A stretch of 64,000 bases of DNA from NCBI RefSeq assembly GCF_021028975.2, contig NC_059436.1, forward strand, positions 11,346,001 to 11,410,000. Direction: 5' to 3'. A model generated the notes under the pieces. That model worked only from the letters and a program-made list of their open reading frames with translations. It was not told where the DNA came from and made no database searches. Source of the DNA: Sphaerodactylus townsendi (Eukaryota). This document shows, one piece after another, positions 681 to 61,735 of the stretch (positions are counted from its first letter, which is position 1; each line of letters opens with the position of its first letter). Position numbers and translations under genes: made by a program.

Positions 681-2139
681 AACCCATGGCAACGCTTGGT
701 GAAGAGAATGACTCGTTTCTTTCTGAAGCTGGATGCTCCTCAGTCATATAGCGTCTTGAAGGAGGTTTGTGAAAAGATGGGCTATAACTGGAAGAAAGCT
801 TGCACGAACCAGGTAAAGACACTTTGAAATTGACATCCTTTGGCCATGAGATAGTTATGCGGAGTGACCTTCAGCCAGTTCTCCTCTGCATTTGCTTACC
901 AGTGTTTTTTCCCCTTACTTCTAAAGCAATATTTATTTTTCCTTGCTAGGTCACCATATCAACCGTGGATAGAAGAAACAATAAACTAATTTTCAAGGCA
1001 AATCTGGTGGAAATGGAAGACAAAATTCTTGTGGATTTCCGTCTGTCAAAGGTAAGTGAAATTAACATTAACCTGAATTCTAAGGAAAGTTTCAATTCCT
1101 ATAGCAGATGTTCTGAAGTCAAAACAACATACTGAAGTCAAAGCAAAGCATCATTGTGATGTGGTGCAGTATAAAACGTGATCTGACCAAAGCATTCTTG
1201 TAATCTTGACATCCTACAAACTGAGGAACAGTGGATGCTAATCATTCTTAATGTCGGAAGTCATGAATGGTACTAGTGTTCCAAGCTATGGTAGACCTTC
1301 AGTAGTGCAAACAAAACTGAAAGATATTTGAACTAATTTCTGATGAAGTGTGTTTTGTAAAAACATTATTTATTCGTTCGATTTATATCCCGCCCACCCC
1401 TGCCACAGTGGGGCTCAGGCCAGCTGACAACGAATGTAAAATACAGCAATTTGAAAACTTTCCATCCTTAAATAATATAAATCTAAAAACCCAATAGAGC
1501 ATCTAATAAACCTGGAGTCTTCTAATGGTGCAGATGACCACATTTAAAAAATCAGCTCTCCTGGTATTGTATGGGGCAACCTGGAAAACATTTGGCCATA
1601 GGAGGCAACAGTAATGAAAACAAGGGGAGGGAACCTCAAATGAAAACCAGTTAGCTGGTGGCATGGAAAATAGTATACACCTGGTGGAACACCTGTATGA
1701 GGGGGTGGGGCAAGTGAATTGTATTAGCCTGAAAGTTACTTTATCCTAGTTTATAGAAACTCTGTCTAATAGGCCTGATGGAAAAGCTGTAAGTTGAGAG
1801 ATGGGGATTGTGTTGACCTCCCAGTTTATAGAAACCCCAACTAATACATGTCAGGCTGCTGACCGCCATCATGTATTTCCAGATAAACAGTCTGTCGAGC
1901 CTTTCTCACATTAATCGTATCTAGCCTGAAGGTGGGGCTCCCAGGGAGATAAAGGCTTTTGGAATATTGTTCCATCTCCTCAGCCTAGCATATGCACCCC
2001 ATTAATTCAATGATCGTGTGTTGTATTTTTTTTTTCGGTGTAGGGTGATGGTTTGGAGTTCAAGCGGCATTTCCTGAAGATCAAGGGGAAACTGAGTGAC
2101 GTTGTCAGCGTGCAGAAGCTGTGGCTTCCCACCACATGA
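681..2139 (+). CDS. CHEK1: Checkpoint kinase 1, last three coding exons (C-terminal KA1 regulatory domain); 5'-partial
   Basis: Exons 681-812 ([19 protein letters not shown]...KKACTNQ), 950-1051 ([34 protein letters not shown]) and 2044-2139 ([31 protein letters not shown]). All have AG/GT boundaries in phase 0 and match the known CHEK1 C-terminus. Confidence 0.97.
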
Positions 2140-3370
2140 TTGTGTTTGAAGTTGAAAGCTGCTCAGTGTTGGATCTTGTCACTCTGACTTGGTGTCTTCT
2201 GCTGAGAGACAGTTATGCCTGCCACAGTCTGGACTCAAGAGTTCGATGGTTTGCTTGGTTAAGTGAAGCCATTCACTGGTGGTGACAGGAATAGAAATAA
2301 TCTGCATATAATACCGCACCGACTACTGTAATGGGGCAAAGTTTTGCTGCCGCATTTCAATCCGACTGTGCTCATGATAAAGCTGCCAGTGCCTTAACTT
2401 ATGTGAAGTTCTTAGAATTATTTTTGTAACGCATTCAAGACCCAAATACTTGTATTCCTTTCAATCTCCAAACTGCTGCAATCACAAAACAATGCAAATT
2501 GAAGCCTGGAGCAAGCTGCGGCATTCATGTTTTGAAAATTTCGACAAAAGTTCACTTTTTGTAAATTTGATGGTACTAGTATATGAAATATTAGGAATGT
2601 AGAATGAGATCCCTAAGCTATTGTTTGGTTTATAATAGTTTGTGGATATCTGAATGAAGCAATGCTTCTAGTCCTTCAGTTTCATATTGGTTCAGTCTAA
2701 GGCGCAAAGCTAGTCAATATGGCAACCCCCAAAGCATCGCTTTTCACTGTGGGGTCCTTAATTCTGCTTGGAATTGCATCATTTGAAGTGGGGAACGAGG
2801 AACTGTTTTCTGTGTCCCCCCCCCCCTCCATTTTGATGCCATATTGGGGGACCACCAGATGCCATATTGGGGTTTGGGGGAATACCAGCCCCCACCCCAC
2901 CCCCCTGTGCTGCAGTTTCTAGAAAGATCATGCCTCCCACGGTGTTTTAAGGAGTTTTTTTTTTTAATTAAACATAGCTGTGAAATGGTGCTGTCTCTCT
3001 GTGATGGACTCAGGGATGCTGCATTATCTAGTTCGGTCCTAAGAAGAACATAAATCAGAACTGCAATGATTGTTAGAGGGCCTTGTCAAATTTTCTACTC
3101 TTAGATCAGTATTCAGCGGCACACACATCCTTCCCGCCAAAATCTGACAGAACCCATTTAGCCTCTAGAATAGTGGTCTCCATTCCATTATTGTCTTTTC
3201 TTTGCTCCAGGTGTATTTCAAATAGATGCCCCAGGGTCATTTTAGTGATGCCTTATACCTCCACTCCAAGAGACAGGAACCATGCTTCTGGCAGATCATA
3301 TTAAAGAACAATAATGTGAATTTTTAAATTTGCGTGTCGTGAAAAAACTCTGCAAGAAAACACGTTACAT

Positions 3371-3376
3371 AATAAA
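3371..3376 (+). terminator. Candidate CHEK1 polyadenylation signal AATAAA
   Basis: AATAAA about 1.2 kb after the CHEK1 stop, followed by T/GT-rich sequence. Confidence 0.5.
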
Positions 3377-3480
3377 GAATATTTCAACTTGAAATGACTC
3401 TCTGATTGTTTTGCACAGAATTCTGCTTTGGTTCTCTCTGTTGCTGGAAATCTACACAGTTTGAATCCAAATGGGGAAGA

Positions 3481-5088
3481 TCATGGTAATGTCTTTCTGT
3501 TGCAAAATTGGGTAATTGTTCGGACAACACGTGGAAAAATTTGTAGAGGGACACATTTTAGGCTGAGAGAGTTGAAGCACTTCCCTCTACGTATGATAAA
3601 TGGAGAGGTGCCTGGGTGTCTTGACAGCATGATGATTATATTTGGTCACCACCTGGAACTGGAATTGTTACAAAATCATACCATCAGGTATGAAACGTAT
3701 ATGCTGAATGCTTTTCCCATTTAGATGAGAAGGGGATTTAGTGGCATTTAATCCCTCCCATTCTCAGCAAGCTTTGATCACAGGATCCCTTATATTTTAA
3801 GTAAGGCTGGTTATCCAGCTTAGACCATTGATCAACTTTTATATATGAGACTGATATATTGTAAATTTGGTCCTTTTTAGGATGAACATAAGACATTGGT
3901 ATGGTTGTCATGGAATCATAGAGTTTGAAGAGACCCCAAGGGCCATCCAGTCCAACCCCCTGCAATGCAGGAACACATAATCAAAGCACTGCTGACAGAT
4001 GGCTATCCAGCCTTTCTTTAAAAACCTCCAAAGAAAGACTCCACCACACTCCGAGGTAGTGCATTCCACTGTCGAACAGCCCTTACTGTCAGGAAGTTTT
4101 TCTTGATGTTTAGGTGGAATCTCTTCTCCTTCACCTTGAACCCATTACTCCTGGTCCTAGTCTCTGGAGCAGCAGAAAGCAAGCTTGCTCCCTCACCAAC
4201 ATGACATCCCTTCAAATATCTAAACATGGCCATCATGTCACCTCTTAACCTTCTCTTCACCAAACTAAACATACCCTGCTCCCTAAGACTCTCCTCCTTG
4301 TCACAGTACTTCTGAGCTCTCTAAGCCTGCAGATCAAAATAACATCAGAATGAGATGGTAATGCTGTCTGGGTTAGTTGTTATGGACATTCCAACCTGCT
4401 TTGAATGCCCACACAGTGCCATTTTTCTGCTGGTCAGCTGATGTCTCTACCCTGATCTTTATTATTTGTCGAACAGAGACTGCAGACGCTCTTCAAAACA
4501 GTGGTACAGACTGCAACTACTGAGGTTCAGACCATCCAGTCGTAGGAGTTGAGGAGAAAACACAGCTGTGTCTCAAGGTAATCCAGGAAGTATTTTTCAT
4601 TAAAATAAAAAAGTAAAGGTACAGGCCATGGTTTTTTTTAAAAAACCATTCTATGGATTTTATATTCTGCAAGTGCTGGAGAAAAGTGCAGCATAATCAG
4701 TCAGGGATATATATTGCATACAATAATGATTAAGGAAACATAAGACGAAAATAAAACAAGATAACAGCTTATGCTAATTGCTTTGCATGTCTTGTGGTTT
4801 GTTACAAGTAGTAAAGAAGTCAAAACTAGTTCTTGTGAACTTAGTAAAGTGTCAATTCCAAATGTCTCTGTAAGTATTCTTTTGCTAGTTCATGCACAGT
4901 GTAGTCAGTCACTCAGTGTGAGCAATATACTGATGTGTTAATAGAAGGTAAATACCAGGACCTCCAGTTTTGTAAGGTTAGCAGCTATGATGGCTGTCCT
5001 CCTAATCTGACTCACATGACTGTCTAACTCACATGCAGCTGGAATGAGACTGAGAGCAGAGAAGAGAGCAGTGCGTATTTTGCCTCAT
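3481..5088 (-). pseudogene. Decayed ACRV1/PATE-like Ly6-uPAR (three-finger) gene
   Basis: Terminal exon 3652-3481 starts ag|GT GGT and, across frameshifts, reads ...KMCPSTNFSTCCPNNY/QFCNRKTLP*. This resembles ACRV1 MCPSMNLFS...CCRNQSFCNKI and the Ly6 CC..CN motif. A putative signal-peptide exon at 5088-5033 reads M/(G)KIRTALFSALSLIPAA with a 1-nt frameshift and a phase-1 gtgagt donor. It lies tail-to-tail with CHEK1, as ACRV1 does in mammals. Confidence 0.55.
3910..4298 (-). mobile_element. CR1 LINE, 3' fragment
   Basis: ORF 4018-4272 (FSLVKRRLRGDM..RYLKG..TRSNGFK..RFHLNIKKNFLTVRAVRQWNALP) is the CR1 ORF2 C-terminus, followed by a CR1 3'UTR/tail (ctatgattc). Confidence 0.92.
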
Positions 5089-5110
5089 GGACTCTGTCCG
5101 GGATGAAGGC

Positions 5111-5566
5111 CACTGGCGTTCCTGCCTAGGGACATGGGATACCCCTTGTCCCCGGGCGCATCGATTGAGGTCACGTGGGGGGCGCCAAAACATCCTCTGA
5201 CACAGGGAGGGATTGAGCAAGTCCTAGAAAGCAGGCATTGAAGCAGCAGACTGCTCCCAGTGCCTGTCGTAGCCCCGCCCACTCTGTACGGTGGCCTGGA
5301 GTGTCCAGGGGGCGGGGGAGAAGTCCCACTGGGCTCCCAGGAGCAGGACTAGGGAGCTCCGCCTCCCCTCCCTCTAACCCAGTGTGCCTTATTCGCCTTA
5401 AATTAAGTGTGGCATTGCTCAGAAGCCTTCTCCCTGGCAGCCGGGCGCTGTGCACAGGAAAAGGCAAGCTGAGCAGGGAGCCCAGCAGCAGCAGCAGCAC
5501 TGAAGATGATGCTGACTTGCTTGGTAAACCTTCAGATGGGGGGTGACTTGTGAGAGATTTACATGC

Positions 5567-5601
<35 letters not shown>

Positions 5602-6128
5602 TATTTATTTAATTTGTATACCGCCCGATCCCCGAAGGGCTTAAAAGTTAATTCCCACTTGCACTGGCTTGGAGCTGTTTCTCAGGCTAGCAGCCTACCT
5701 CACAGGGTTGGTGTGAGGACACAATTAGGAAAGTGGTGGGGAGAGAGCCATGCCTGTTTTGCTGGGGGGTAGGAGGTGATTTGTGAGAGATGATGCTGAC
5801 GTTTGCTTGGTAAACCTTCAGATGGGGGGTGACTTGTGAGAGATTTACATGCTTAAAAGTTAATTCCCACTTGCACTGGCTTGGAGCTCTTTCTGAGGCT
5901 AACAACCTACCTCATAGGGTTGGTGTGAGGACACAATTAAGAAAGAGAGTTGGTGGGGAGAAAGCCATGTATGTTTTGCTGGTGGTGGGAGGTGTTTTGT
6001 GAGCTGGTGCAAAAAATCATTGTTTGGTCGTTGTGGGGGAGGGTGGTCGTCCATACCTGGGGTGGGGGTGGGGGGGCACCAAACTCAGATTTTGTCCCCG
6101 GGCTCCAGTTTGCCTAGATTCGCCCCTG
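5111..6128. mobile_element. Non-autonomous hAT DNA transposon with 8-bp TSD
   Basis: Ends CACTGGCG...CGCCCCTG. ATGAAGGC is duplicated at 5103-5110 and 6129-6136. It carries an internal direct duplication (about 5505-5790 vs 5789-6000). A related left end is at 33924. Confidence 0.8.
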
Positions 6129-6290
6129 ATGAAGGCACAACATGCCCTGACCTGCTTTCACTAGGGAAAAGCCCTCCTATGCTACTTGTATGACTTCCAT
6201 TCTGCCGGCATCAACAGCTCTGCTGGGTCAACCTGAAGTTAAGGGCTACAGTAGGTTTTAAAGGATGAAAAATCATCCTTTCCCCCCTCA

Positions 6291-6381
6291 NNNNNNNNNN
6301 NNNNNNNNNNNNNNNNNNNNNNNNNNNNNNNNNNNNNNNNNNNNNNNNNNNNNNNNNNNNNNNNNNNNNNNNNNNNNNNNN
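6291..6381. other. Assembly gap (91 N)
   Basis: Run of N in the sequence. Confidence 0.99.
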
Positions 6382-7631
6382 ATATTGTGCAAGCAGTTTT
6401 ATCTGTTTAAATTTGGTGATGCAGTTTTAGACAGAAGATAGCCACCACTTAGTGCCTGGGACAGAAACAATGCCCTTTACTTGGGATGTAGATGACAAGA
6501 CAAATGGAAGTGTCATTTATTGCATCTTGCAAGCCCAGATGTCTATTATTGCCATAGCAAATTTGGAAAGGATCTCGTGGGAGTCGAATCCAGCCTCTGG
6601 AATCAAGGCTGGATGTTCTGTAAGTAAAGTACAGATCAGCAACTGGCTGTACTGCCAAGTATACTCTTCTGAAGAGTCTGCCCCTTTTCCCCAACCCAGT
6701 TGCCCACCCAGGGGCAGGGTTTGTGGAGGGAGCAATATCTCTAGCATCCTGCTTTCATCGGGGTGTGTGTGTGTGTGTGTTGTAATGATGGGGATATTGA
6801 CCACGCGTTCAATATCTCCTGGCAATGACCATTTGGTAAAATGGGTTCTAAAAGCACCTCCAACAGACGCAAGGACTACTTGAAAACCAGCACCACTATT
6901 TCTCACTGTCCTAATCACTAAACCAGTACTTTTTGTTGTTGTGTTTTATACCACTTTGCCAATGACAAGTCCCTCCGATTGGAGTGGAGTTGTGATCTAC
7001 CTTTTTGTCCGCACTGTCCTGTTGTATTACTATACTAGATACGCTGTTAACTTTAAGTATGTGAGGTAAAATTATTTTTGGAAGCATTAGTGGGGTCTCC
7101 ACTGGGAAGAACCCCGAATCTCTCCCTTGAAATGCCTATTCCTGTTACGCCACAAAAATAATTTATTTTACATTAAAAGGCTCTTTTCTCTACCCACTAG
7201 TAGTGCTTGGTCACTGTATTCAAAGGGCGAGTTTCCTGCATAAATCCCCTGCTTATGTTTTGATGACTGATTAAGATGTTTGGTTTTCTGCCTTGATGCA
7301 GAGAAGTAGAGACTTTCTGTAATAGGAAAGTATTAGTCAGTTTAGGGTAGGGTTTTCCCCACCCCCCTTTGTTTGGAATAAGGTTGTTCTGATCAGCCAG
7401 GCGGCAACTTCTTCCTCCTCCTCTCTTCCAGTGCTATGAGGTGTTCTTGGCAATGACACTTGTCTTCCTTCCAAGACACACTGGCGTCATTTGCAGTCCC
7501 ATTCAAAGCAGAGTTACACCCTCCTAAGCCAGTGGACTTAGAAAGGTGTAACTAGGTAAAGAATGGTGGTGTTGGTGATTTAGACAGAATGCTAATAATG
7601 ACCACATGCTCTGAATTACAACCGACTAGTG

Positions 7632-7670
7632 CCATGGTGGCGAACCTTTGGCACTCCAGATGTTATGGAC

Positions 7671-7701
<31 letters not shown>

Positions 7702-7814
7702 TATTTGACTTAATATACCGCCCAATCCCCGAAGGGCTCAATTAGCCATGCTGGCAGGGGCTGATGGGAATTGTAGTCCATAACATCTGGAGTGCCAAAG
7801 GTTCGCCACCACTG
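7632..7814. mobile_element. hAT MITE with a nested (ATT)n-tailed LINE stub
   Basis: TIRs tggtggcgaacctttggcactccagatgttatggacta / tagtccataacatctggagtgccaaaggttcgccaccactg. Flanks gactagtg / gactagta give a 7/8 TSD. Confidence 0.8.
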
Positions 7815-8159
7815 GACTAGTATGTTTGTGTTGTGGTGGTGCACTAGTTAGAATATTGGACTAGGTCTAGCAAGACTTAGGTTCCGATCCATGCTTCCCG
7901 TGAAAATTTGCTCAGCTATGCTCTCTCTAAACCCAACCAGTGAACAGAAGGAAGAAGACTTACATGTGCATCTCAGAGGAAGGGAAGACTGCAATTTAAA
8001 TAAATGTTTATCTGTCATGCAAGGGACTGAGTGGGGTAGGGTAAGGCAGGTTTCCACACTTGCGGGAGCTTGAAAATTATACACACAGCCTGTTTATCTG
8101 TTCAGAGATCATTATTTTTGCATTTATTGTTGTCACCTAACTTTGGGTCTGATTGTATA

Positions 8160-8510
8160 AAAGAAGAGTTTGAATGTATACCCCCCTTTCTCTCCTGTAA
8201 GGACACTCAAAGGGGCTTACAAACTCCTTTTCCTTCCTCTACCTACAACAGATACTTTGGGAGGTAGGTGGAGCTGAGAGAGTTTGGTGAGAACCGTGAC
8301 TAGCCTGAGATCACCCAGCCTTCATTGCATAGGAGCAGGGAAACAACTCTGGTTCAACAGAGCCCTTAGGGGATGGGGCGGTCTACAAATATAATAATAA
8401 ATAAATAAATAAATAAACATATAAAGAGTCCACCACTCATGTGGAGGAGTGGAGAATCAAACCCAGTTATCCAAGTTAGAGTCCCCCTGCTCTTAACCAC
8501 TGCACCACAC
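8160..8510 (-). mobile_element. Squam3-like tRNA-derived SINE interrupted by an L2 3' end
   Basis: Reverse complement of the gtagtggttaagagc...ctcttctt SINE seen at 22864. An L2-like stub lies at about 8360-8420. Confidence 0.7.
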
Positions 8511-8869
8511 AGGAAAGCAAAAGAAAGGTGAAGTACCATATATAAATATTCAGAATGAATAAACATTTGAAATCTTTCATTTATTAATTAAAATATTTTA
8601 CCTCACCTTTTCTCCATGACTTGAGGCAGGTTACCTGTTTAGAACATGCAAAACACAGGAAAACTATGCCCTGCTATACGGCAATACTAGTTTGTGATTC
8701 ATTGCTACCCTTCCAGTTTAAGGTGTAAATCACAACACCAATTTCTAGAAAATAACTCCTTTTTGTTACCCTTAAAATGCTGTCTTTGTTGAGATTTAGG
8801 CCAGGGACTTGCTATCGGCAACACATTGGATAACAGTGAGGGGGCAAAAGATGTCAGCATTTTTTCTTA

Positions 8870-9010
8870 GGCTGATTCCCCATGGGCCCAAAAAAAGCAG
8901 TGTGAAAATGGTGTGAAAACAGTATAAACCCTTTTACACCGTTTTAAACCCTTTTACACCATTTTCACACCATTTTCACACTGCTGTTTTTGGTCAATGC
9001 GGAATCAGCC
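8870..9010. mobile_element. Palindromic PIF/Harbinger-type MITE with TTA TSD
   Basis: tta|GGCTGATTCC...GGAATCAGCC|tta, with near-palindromic interior (gcagtgtgaaaatggtgtgaaaa / ttttcacaccattttcacactgc). Confidence 0.8.
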
Positions 9011-9074
9011 TTAGTGAGTTTTTCTTTCCCACTCTGTAAGTTTGTGTTTCTTTTCTTTGCCTTCCAGATACTGG

Positions 9075-16309
<7,235 letters not shown>

Positions 16310-61509: not shown

Positions 61510-61735
61510 ATAGAGTTGGAAGAGACTCCAAGGGCCATCAAGTCCAACCCCCTACAATGCAGGAACACATAATCAAAGCACTCCTGACAGATGGCCATCC
61601 AGCCTTTCTTTAAAAACCTCCGAAGAAGGAGACTCCACCACACTCCGAGGTCGTGCATTCCACTGTTGAATAGCCCTTGCTGTCAGGAAGTTCTTCCTGA
61701 TGTTTAGGTGGAATCTCTTTTCCTTCACCTTGAAA
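61510..61735 (-). mobile_element. CR1 LINE 3' fragment, same subfamily as 3910-4298
   Basis: Near-identical to 3918-4140 (tagagttggaagagactccaagggccatc...ttcaccttgaa). Confidence 0.9.

What the first reader, a model, noticed from the sequence alone, without database searches (positions are those of the whole stretch)
3481..5088. Hidden ACRV1/PATE-like three-finger (Ly6) pseudogene tail-to-tail with CHEK1
Seen: on the minus strand, an acceptor ag|GTGGT at 3652 leads into frames that piece together to ...KMCPSTNFSTCCPNNY/QFCNRKTLP*. A 56-nt ATG-to-gtgagt segment (5088-5033) becomes an 18-aa hydrophobic leader with a phase-1 donor if one base is removed. A possible middle-exon remnant (ttgcagtctgtaccactgt, near LQCYHC) lies around 4460-4520, but this is weak. 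Known: in mammals ACRV1 (SP-10; C-terminus recalled as GG..GCENMCPSMNLFS..CCRNQSFCNKI) and the PATE cluster sit immediately 3' of CHEK1 on the opposite strand. Ly6/uPAR is the family from which snake three-finger toxins derive. Inference: this is a decayed squamate ACRV1/PATE orthologue that the ORF track does not show, and it bears on three-finger gene birth and death in reptiles.
Basis: partly seen in the sequence, partly recalled or inferred. Interest (0 to 1): 0.75.

Follow-up and report, generated by a model that had tools for sequence, protein, structure and literature searches.

The report
Likely dead three-finger gene beside CHEK1
Just past the end of the CHEK1 gene of a dwarf gecko lie broken coding scraps that likely come from a dead three-finger (ACRV1/PATE-type) reproductive-protein gene; the breaks in its last exon recur in a second sequencing run, the likeness to the human protein is only borderline, and a link to snake toxins is unlikely.

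Summary
A contig of public run X4 covers 2980-3942 with 2 other letters and no gaps, so the broken last exon is not an assembly error. Whether it is an Ly6/ACRV1 remnant is not settled. Cysteine-anchored tests favour it: the chain Cys-Pro, Cys-Cys, Cys-Asn, stop occurs once in the window, here (0.19 expected per 64 kb), and shares 5 of 22 flanking residues with human SP-10. A better middle-exon frame (C-x-x-C ... DQGR at 4484) lies upstream in the right order. But a plain alignment score is ordinary (P about 0.47 strict, 0.03 lenient), Pfam and five protein searches found no Ly6 relative, the leader exon is near chance level, and a 90%-alike relative lacks the Cys-Asn motif. RNA evidence shows CHEK1 sense transcription across the locus, not the minus-strand gene. 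Snake toxins come from another (TOP1MT-linked) cluster. Verdict: probable old pseudogene (about 0.6), modest interest.

The parts
681..2139 (+). Last three coding exons of CHEK1 (681-812, 950-1051, 2044-2139 with stop)
   Evidence: PDB Chk1 chain, E 1.3e-13 for the 657-824 frame; splice sites and frames
2140..3395 (+). CHEK1 3' UTR; AATAAA at 3371; a longer form appears to run on to at least 3942, across the last-exon remnant
   Evidence: signal; X23 RNA depth falls to 0 from bin 3370 on; X4 contig of 1900 nt, depth 360, back-calculated start about 2043, laid to 3942
3481..3652 (-). Candidate last exon of a decayed LU (three-finger) gene: phase-1 acceptor with G-G, C-P at 3553, C-C at 3529, C-N at 3504, stop 3483-3481; elements lie in three different frames with internal stops
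   Evidence: same letters and no gaps in X4
3908..4300 (.). High-copy repeat (3' end of a CR1-type LINE; family name recalled) in the candidate second intron
   Evidence: depth 10^4-10^6 and loose ends at 3908-3913 and 4296; second copy at 61510-61734 (93%)
4360..4519 (-). Candidate middle exon remnant: C-x-x-C at 4484-4473, D-Q-G-R, further Cys at 4415 and 4388, stops at 4436 and 4382; no clear GT donor at its expected end; lower end approximate
   Evidence: anchored test P 0.002-0.005; not significant as a free alignment and no relative in 1.84 billion representatives
4477..4577 (+). Plus-strand exon with ag|...|gt ends, inferred from run X4; likely an alternative 3' exon of CHEK1; overlaps the start of the candidate middle exon antisense
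   Evidence: depth-32.2 pieces, edges worked out (4475-4577 and 4808-5099); the joint row itself was not among the 15 of 161 shown
4809..5099 (+). Second inferred plus-strand exon of the same X4 contig; covers the candidate leader exon antisense
   Evidence: record 8 (443 nt, 3 other letters, 0 gaps); acceptor
5033..5088 (-). Candidate leader exon, ATG to gtgagt, 56 nt, phase 2 as sequenced; weak
   Evidence: same length in X4
5100..5300 (.). High-copy repeat immediately upstream of the candidate ATG, where a promoter would be; edges approximate
   Evidence: depth 10^3-10^5 in bins 5086-5300; X4's unique contig ends at 5099

Best explanation
The stretch 3481-5088 likely holds the remains of a once-secreted single three-finger (LU-domain) gene of the ACRV1/PATE locus, lying tail-to-tail with CHEK1, that is broken by stops and frame changes and is predicted to make no protein. 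Shown: the motifs, their order and strand, the breaks in the last exon in a second run, repeats in the second intron and just upstream of the ATG, and CHEK1-sense RNA over the region. Inferred: descent from an LU gene, the three-exon layout, loss of function long enough ago for indels of 4 to about 60 nt to pile up, and later use of the dead locus by CHEK1's long 3' UTR and alternative 3' exons. The ancestral role (a secreted sperm or epididymal protein, as for mammalian SP-10 and PATE) is inferred from position only.
For: Human order EI24, STT3A, CHEK1, ACRV1 (passage of PMC3700940). A family-level DNA chain C-P, C-C, C-N, stop is found once in the window, ending at 3481; 76 in 400 simulated windows, 0.0045 per 3 kb of one strand; with a G-G acceptor in front, 1 in 400. 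Around those anchors 5 of 22 residues equal human SP-10 by eye (sequence printed in PMC3836704), binomial P 0.006. Middle exon: a C-x-x-C followed by 3 consecutive identities arose in 103 of 20000 surrogates, with a fourth identity in 46 of 20000. Lenient frameshift alignment score 46 was reached by 41 of 1200 surrogates. Phase-1 acceptors and Asn after the last Cys fit the LU layout (PMC6600238 section 2). X4 has no gap over 2980-3942 or 4808-5099.
Against: All patterns were chosen after seeing the sequence. Strict alignment score 31 was reached by 560 of 1200 surrogates; the middle exon scored below the surrogate median under both schemes (1170 and 1126 of 1200 as high). No LU family in Pfam for 9 of 9 frames. 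No Ly6 protein from phmmer of the 62-residue middle-exon frame against 1.84 billion representatives (1 hit, an unrelated repeat protein), from word-index searches, PDB or the ESM Atlas, although the collection holds annotated proteins of five geckos. Run X9 (about 90% alike) lacks 4 letters at 3496, which removes the Cys-Asn motif; which state is older is unknown. Loop lengths differ from SP-10 by about +20 and -7 residues. The leader exon is near chance. Depth in X6 and X9 suggests 4384-5085 is several-copy DNA in those species.
Confidence: 0.6

Rival explanations
1. The motifs are chance matches in CHEK1 3' UTR, intron-like and repeat-derived DNA, picked out because the reader expected ACRV1 here.
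For: Strict alignment score is at the null median; every database search was blank; three frames and large indels are needed; X9 lacks the Cys-Asn motif; leader exon matched by 10 of 78 segments; the only RNA seen is CHEK1-sense.
Against: The generic chain occurs once in 128 kb of strand and exactly at the expected place and strand; SP-10-specific residues flank the anchors; an independent C-x-x-C/DQG piece lies upstream in the right order.
Confidence: 0.3
2. The pieces are orphan exons from a partial tandem duplication of an intact ACRV1/PATE-like gene that lies nearby, for instance inside the assembly gap at 6291-6381, rather than the single lost orthologue.
For: LU genes sit in duplicating clusters with orphan exons; a 91-N gap lies 1.2 kb upstream and no CpG-rich promoter for FAM118B is seen before its coding start; several contigs per position over 4384-5085 in X6 and X9.
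Against: The last-exon region is single-copy in X4 and X9 (flat depth); no other LU-like exon pattern between 2140 and 9100; no close intact paralogue in the protein searches.
Confidence: 0.08
3. It is a working gene whose breaks are assembly errors.
For: None found.
Against: X4's contigs show no gap over the last exon or the leader exon; no extra X4 contig depth over either (flat 359.7 and 32.2); X23 has 0 depth over 3370-3837 (tissue unknown, 6 in 100 of the run read).
Confidence: 0.02

Closest known systems
Human acrosomal protein SP-10 (ACRV1, 11q24.2)
   Same: Neighbour of CHEK1; short shared motifs in the same order: C-x-x-C, D-Q-G-[K/R], G-G, M-C-P-S-x-N, C-C-x-N, F-C-N-[K/R], then a stop within a few codons, no GPI tail.
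   Different: No open frame; no room for SP-10's extra exon for the long disordered N-terminal part (512 nt between candidate donor 5032 and acceptor 4520); loops longer or shorter by many residues; third cysteine replaced; leader not alike.
PATE1-4 / mouse Pate cluster (secreted three-exon LU proteins beside ACRV1)
   Same: Same locus in mammals and a three-exon, secreted layout (PMC4839075 passages).
   Different: No PATE sequence could be compared here; only one broken copy is visible in the window.
Snake three-finger toxins and reptilian LY6 groups (Koludarov et al. 2023, PMC10421932)
   Same: Same superfamily and, if real, the same kind of orphan-exon decay (sections read).
   Different: Those genes lie in the TOP1MT-linked cluster and the toxin ancestor is toxicoferan-only; the paper's text has no CHEK1 or PATE and its 6 held supplements no ACRV1, PATE, SP-10, CHEK1 or Gekko.

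Membership tests
LU (Ly6/uPAR) domain genes | 60-90 residues with 10 cysteines in one reading frame | tested here: not met
   Eight candidate cysteines (4484, 4475, 4415, 4388, 3553, 3529, 3526, 3504) lie in three frames with stops between; expected of a pseudogene, so it lowers 'is a gene', not 'was one'.
LU (Ly6/uPAR) domain genes | Asn directly after the last cysteine | tested here: inconclusive
   Present at 3504-3499 in the window and X4; removed by a 4-letter difference in X9.
LU (Ly6/uPAR) domain genes | Leader exon plus two domain exons with phase-1 introns | tested here: inconclusive
   Acceptors at 4520|4519 and 3653|3652 read in phase 1; the leader donor is phase 2 as sequenced; no clear donor ends the middle exon.
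LU (Ly6/uPAR) domain genes | Match to a Pfam LU-family profile | tested here: not met
   0 LU families for 9 single-frame fragments at E up to 10, filters cut near 0.1; fragments only, so low power.
LU (Ly6/uPAR) domain genes | Three-finger fold | not testable with these tools
   No intact frame to fold.
ACRV1 (SP-10) orthologue | Position next to CHEK1 | tested here: met
   1.3-3 kb past the CHEK1 stop; human order; opposite strand in human is recalled.
ACRV1 (SP-10) orthologue | Extra exon for a disordered N-terminal segment (figure legend) | tested here: not met
   512 nt between candidate exons 1 and 2, with no open frame of 100 codons there; human segment is about 170 residues.
ACRV1 (SP-10) orthologue | Significant sequence similarity to SP-10 | tested here: inconclusive
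   Hand-scored: P 0.47 strict and 0.034 lenient; anchored joint estimate about 3e-5 per 3 kb before allowing for post hoc choices.
ACRV1 (SP-10) orthologue | Spermatid/testis expression | not testable with these tools
   Tissues of X4 and X23 are not on record.
Snake three-finger toxins / pre-3FTX | Toxicoferan lineage and TOP1MT-linked cluster | tested here: not met
   Window TIRAP is 99% identical to a Sphaerodactylus gecko protein; geckos are outside Toxicofera (established knowledge); neighbours in the 64 kb are CHEK1, SIR2-like, SRP54-type, FAD oxidoreductase and TIR genes; DNA beyond the window was not seen.

The most novel reading that the evidence does not exclude
The CHEK1-linked ACRV1/PATE three-finger gene is older than the mammal-reptile split, survived into geckos as a three-exon gene without SP-10's disordered insert, died in Sphaerodactylus, and its DNA has since been taken over on the other strand by CHEK1's extended 3' UTR and new alternative 3' exons.
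Probability: 0.45. Interest if true: 0.5.

Novelty: new member of a known kind. Interest (0 to 1): 0.3.

Why it matters
The papers seen here describe ACRV1 and PATE only in mammals, and the reptile Ly6 survey covered only the TOP1MT-linked cluster. A reptile remnant at the CHEK1 locus would date this reproductive three-finger locus to the amniote ancestor and mark a lineage-specific loss. It is a small comparative-genomics point: unitary pseudogenes in this fast-turnover family are common, and it says little about venom toxins. Eight paper searches (listings only, apart from the papers named) showed no report of a reptile ACRV1/PATE; NCBI gene annotations could not be queried and Levitin 2008 was not held, so a reptile orthologue may already be annotated.

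Tried and rejected
No whole genome is held, so orthologous loci could not be fetched. Pfam on 9 frames: two weak unrelated hits only. Word-index protein searches: no candidate for the last exon read with X at two breaks (51-165 aa only); 1 candidate, not scoring, for the middle exon (47-151 aa only); a 265-aa SP-10-like protein is outside both ranges. phmmer on representatives with the middle exon: 1 hit, a 628-aa repeat protein, rejected. No length-free remote search was made with the frame that bears M-C-P-S and C-C, so that test remains open. PDB and ESM Atlas: blank. Metagenome scan with a CHEK1 exon: 1 of 386 stretches confirmed, a 1.3-kb contig 56% alike, of no use for synteny. Rfam 2140-9100: 0 matches. 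No RNA holder was listed on record. Earlier scan notes: nothing on this locus; 7 unrelated invertebrate Ly6 notes. Human SP-10 could be compared only by eye, so the scores are hand counts set against surrogate queries, not a direct alignment.

Full report
Setting. The window comes from a sphaerodactylid gecko: its TIRAP exon is 99% identical to the Sphaerodactylus townsendi protein, then 84-77% to four other geckos. It opens with the last three coding exons of CHEK1 on the plus strand (PDB Chk1 chain, E 1.3e-13; stop at 2139). Further on lie genes with SIR2-like, SRP54-type, FAD-oxidoreductase and TIR domains, which I name FAM118B, SRPRA, FOXRED1 and TIRAP (the first three names are recalled). 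A run of 91 N lies at 6291-6381.

Observation. On the minus strand an acceptor ccag|GTGGT opens at 3652. Read in phase 1 it gives G-G-D-Q-I and a stop. A second frame gives M-C-P-S-T-N-F-S-T-C-C-P-N-N from 3556, a third gives F-C-N-R-K from 3507 to the stop at 3483-3481. The human SP-10 sequence, printed in PMC3836704 (passage), has the same elements in the same order, but 12 residues between G-G and M-C-P-S (here about 31 codons) and eight between F-S and C-C (here one). The 56-nt segment 5088-5033 exists and is phase 2. It is in phase 1 with an acceptor at 4520|4519 and resembles the start of the SP-10 domain better.

Are the breaks real? One lay of 2980-5300 was made with 4 of the 24 listed runs. 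X4 (organism A) has a single contig over 2980-3942 with 2 other letters and no gap, and another over 4808-5099 with 3 other letters and no gap. The frame changes of the last exon and the phase of the leader are therefore not assembly errors, with the caveat that X4 may belong to the same study as the assembly. The middle-exon stops were not covered by X4. X9 (organism D) has a 967-nt contig over 3015-3998 with 95 other letters and 27 gap letters; among the rows shown is a 4-letter absence at 3496, which changes frame within the candidate exon and removes the Cys-Asn motif. This shows lack of coding constraint between the two species, but if D's state is the older one the motif is an accident.

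Is it more than chance? Three kinds of test disagree, and all are reported. (a) Narrow motifs: M-C-P-S-x-N and the C-x-x-C/DQG pattern each occur once in the window, against 0.02 and 0.003 per simulated window (300 simulations); these were tuned after the fact and prove little. (b) Free alignment: I scored the match to SP-10 by hand and compared it with 1200 random five-cysteine surrogates aligned to 3-kb pieces of the rest of the window. Last exon: 31 under strict penalties, reached by 560 of 1200; 46 under lenient penalties, reached by 41 of 1200. Middle exon: 25 and 29, reached by 1170 and 1126 of 1200. A plain tBLASTn would thus not call it. (c) Cysteine-anchored: the family-level chain C-P, C-C, C-N, stop, each in any frame, is found once in the window, ending at 3481; it arose 76 times in 400 simulated windows (0.0045 per 3 kb of one strand), and once in 400 with a G-G acceptor in front. 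Five of 22 residues beside these anchors equal SP-10 (binomial P 0.006), and the middle-exon pattern arose in 103 (or, with a fourth identity, 46) of 20000 surrogates. Because cysteines and the final Asn define the family (PMC6600238 section 2), anchoring on them is fair, but spacings were chosen with the sequence in view. The leader exon adds little: 10 of 78 comparable segments are as hydrophobic.

Database searches were all blank: Pfam on 9 frames, two word-index searches limited to 47-165 residues, PDB, ESM Atlas, and phmmer of the 62-residue middle-exon frame against 1.84 billion representatives, whose single hit is an unrelated repeat protein. The collection includes gecko proteomes, so a close intact gecko copy of the middle exon would probably have shown; a copy at under about 45% identity might not (my estimate). 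The frame with M-C-P-S and C-C was not searched without a length limit.

Transcription. X4 is not on record as RNA, but 215 million letters, depth 360 and a contig that begins at about 2043, the start of CHEK1's last exon, point to RNA. That contig runs unbroken across the candidate last exon, so a long CHEK1 3' UTR appears to cover it antisense. Depth over the candidate leader and last exons equals these contigs' depth exactly, so no minus-strand spliced form is seen in X4. X23 (RNA, organism C, 6 in 100 of the run read, mates equal on both strands) has depth about 8-9 on the UTR, 0 over 3370-3837 and 4306-4461, and 1-6 over 4462-5085. Tissues are unknown, so silence in testis is not shown.

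How it most likely works. An ancestral small secreted LU gene of the ACRV1/PATE locus, three exons, tail-to-tail with CHEK1, lost function; a LINE fragment entered its second intron and a high-copy element sits just before its ATG; stops and indels accumulated; CHEK1 transcripts now read through it. The breaks, repeats and plus-strand RNA are shown or nearly so; the descent is inferred, at about 0.6. The main rival is chance (0.3); orphan exons of an intact paralogue hidden in the gap (0.08) and a working gene (0.02) follow.

Comparison and novelty. It works like an orphan-exon pseudogene of the LU family. Membership as an intact LU gene fails; orthology with ACRV1 is met for position, not met for the extra disordered exon (legend), and open for sequence. 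Snake toxins derive from a toxicoferan-only gene in the TOP1MT-linked cluster (PMC10421932 sections 6 and 12); that paper's text has no CHEK1 or PATE and its six held supplements none of the five terms sought. Passages of PMC4839075 and PMC2686098 treat ACRV1 and PATE in mammals only. Eight searches (listings) gave no reptile report, but annotation databases were out of reach and Levitin 2008 was not held. At best a new member of a known kind; interest 0.3.

Noticed in passing
window 4477-4577 and 4809-5099 (+): Inferred spliced plus-strand exons downstream of CHEK1 in run X4, with low RNA depth over the same bins in X23; if joined to the CHEK1 exon ending at 1051, frame 1 of 4477-4577 would give a 22-residue alternative C-terminus. 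Upstream partner not seen.
   Followed up: partly
window 6291-6381: A 91-N gap leaves only about 7 kb between CHEK1 and the FAM118B coding start, with no CpG-rich bin for a FAM118B promoter; the genes that lie between them in human (PATE1-4, HYLS1, PUS3, DDX25, CDON, RPUSD4; order recalled) are not seen, so they are in the gap or moved.
   Followed up: partly
window 5504-6003: Local tandem duplication of about 150-nt and 68-nt blocks (88-97% alike) split by a SINE-like insert with an (AAT)n tail at about 5574-5644.
   Followed up: no
window 12844-13972 (-): LINE reverse-transcriptase-like open frames (275 and 132 codons) inside a FAM118B intron (family recalled; no Pfam hit at E 0.01 for the 275-codon frame).
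   Followed up: no
window 4384-5085: Depth several times the single-copy level in runs X6 and X9, unique within the window: a low-copy repeat or paralogues in those species.
   Followed up: no
window 4515-4506 and 4484-4473 (-): Two near-copies of a 10-12 nt word 31 nt apart underlie both candidate starts of the middle exon, suggesting a small old duplication.
   Followed up: no
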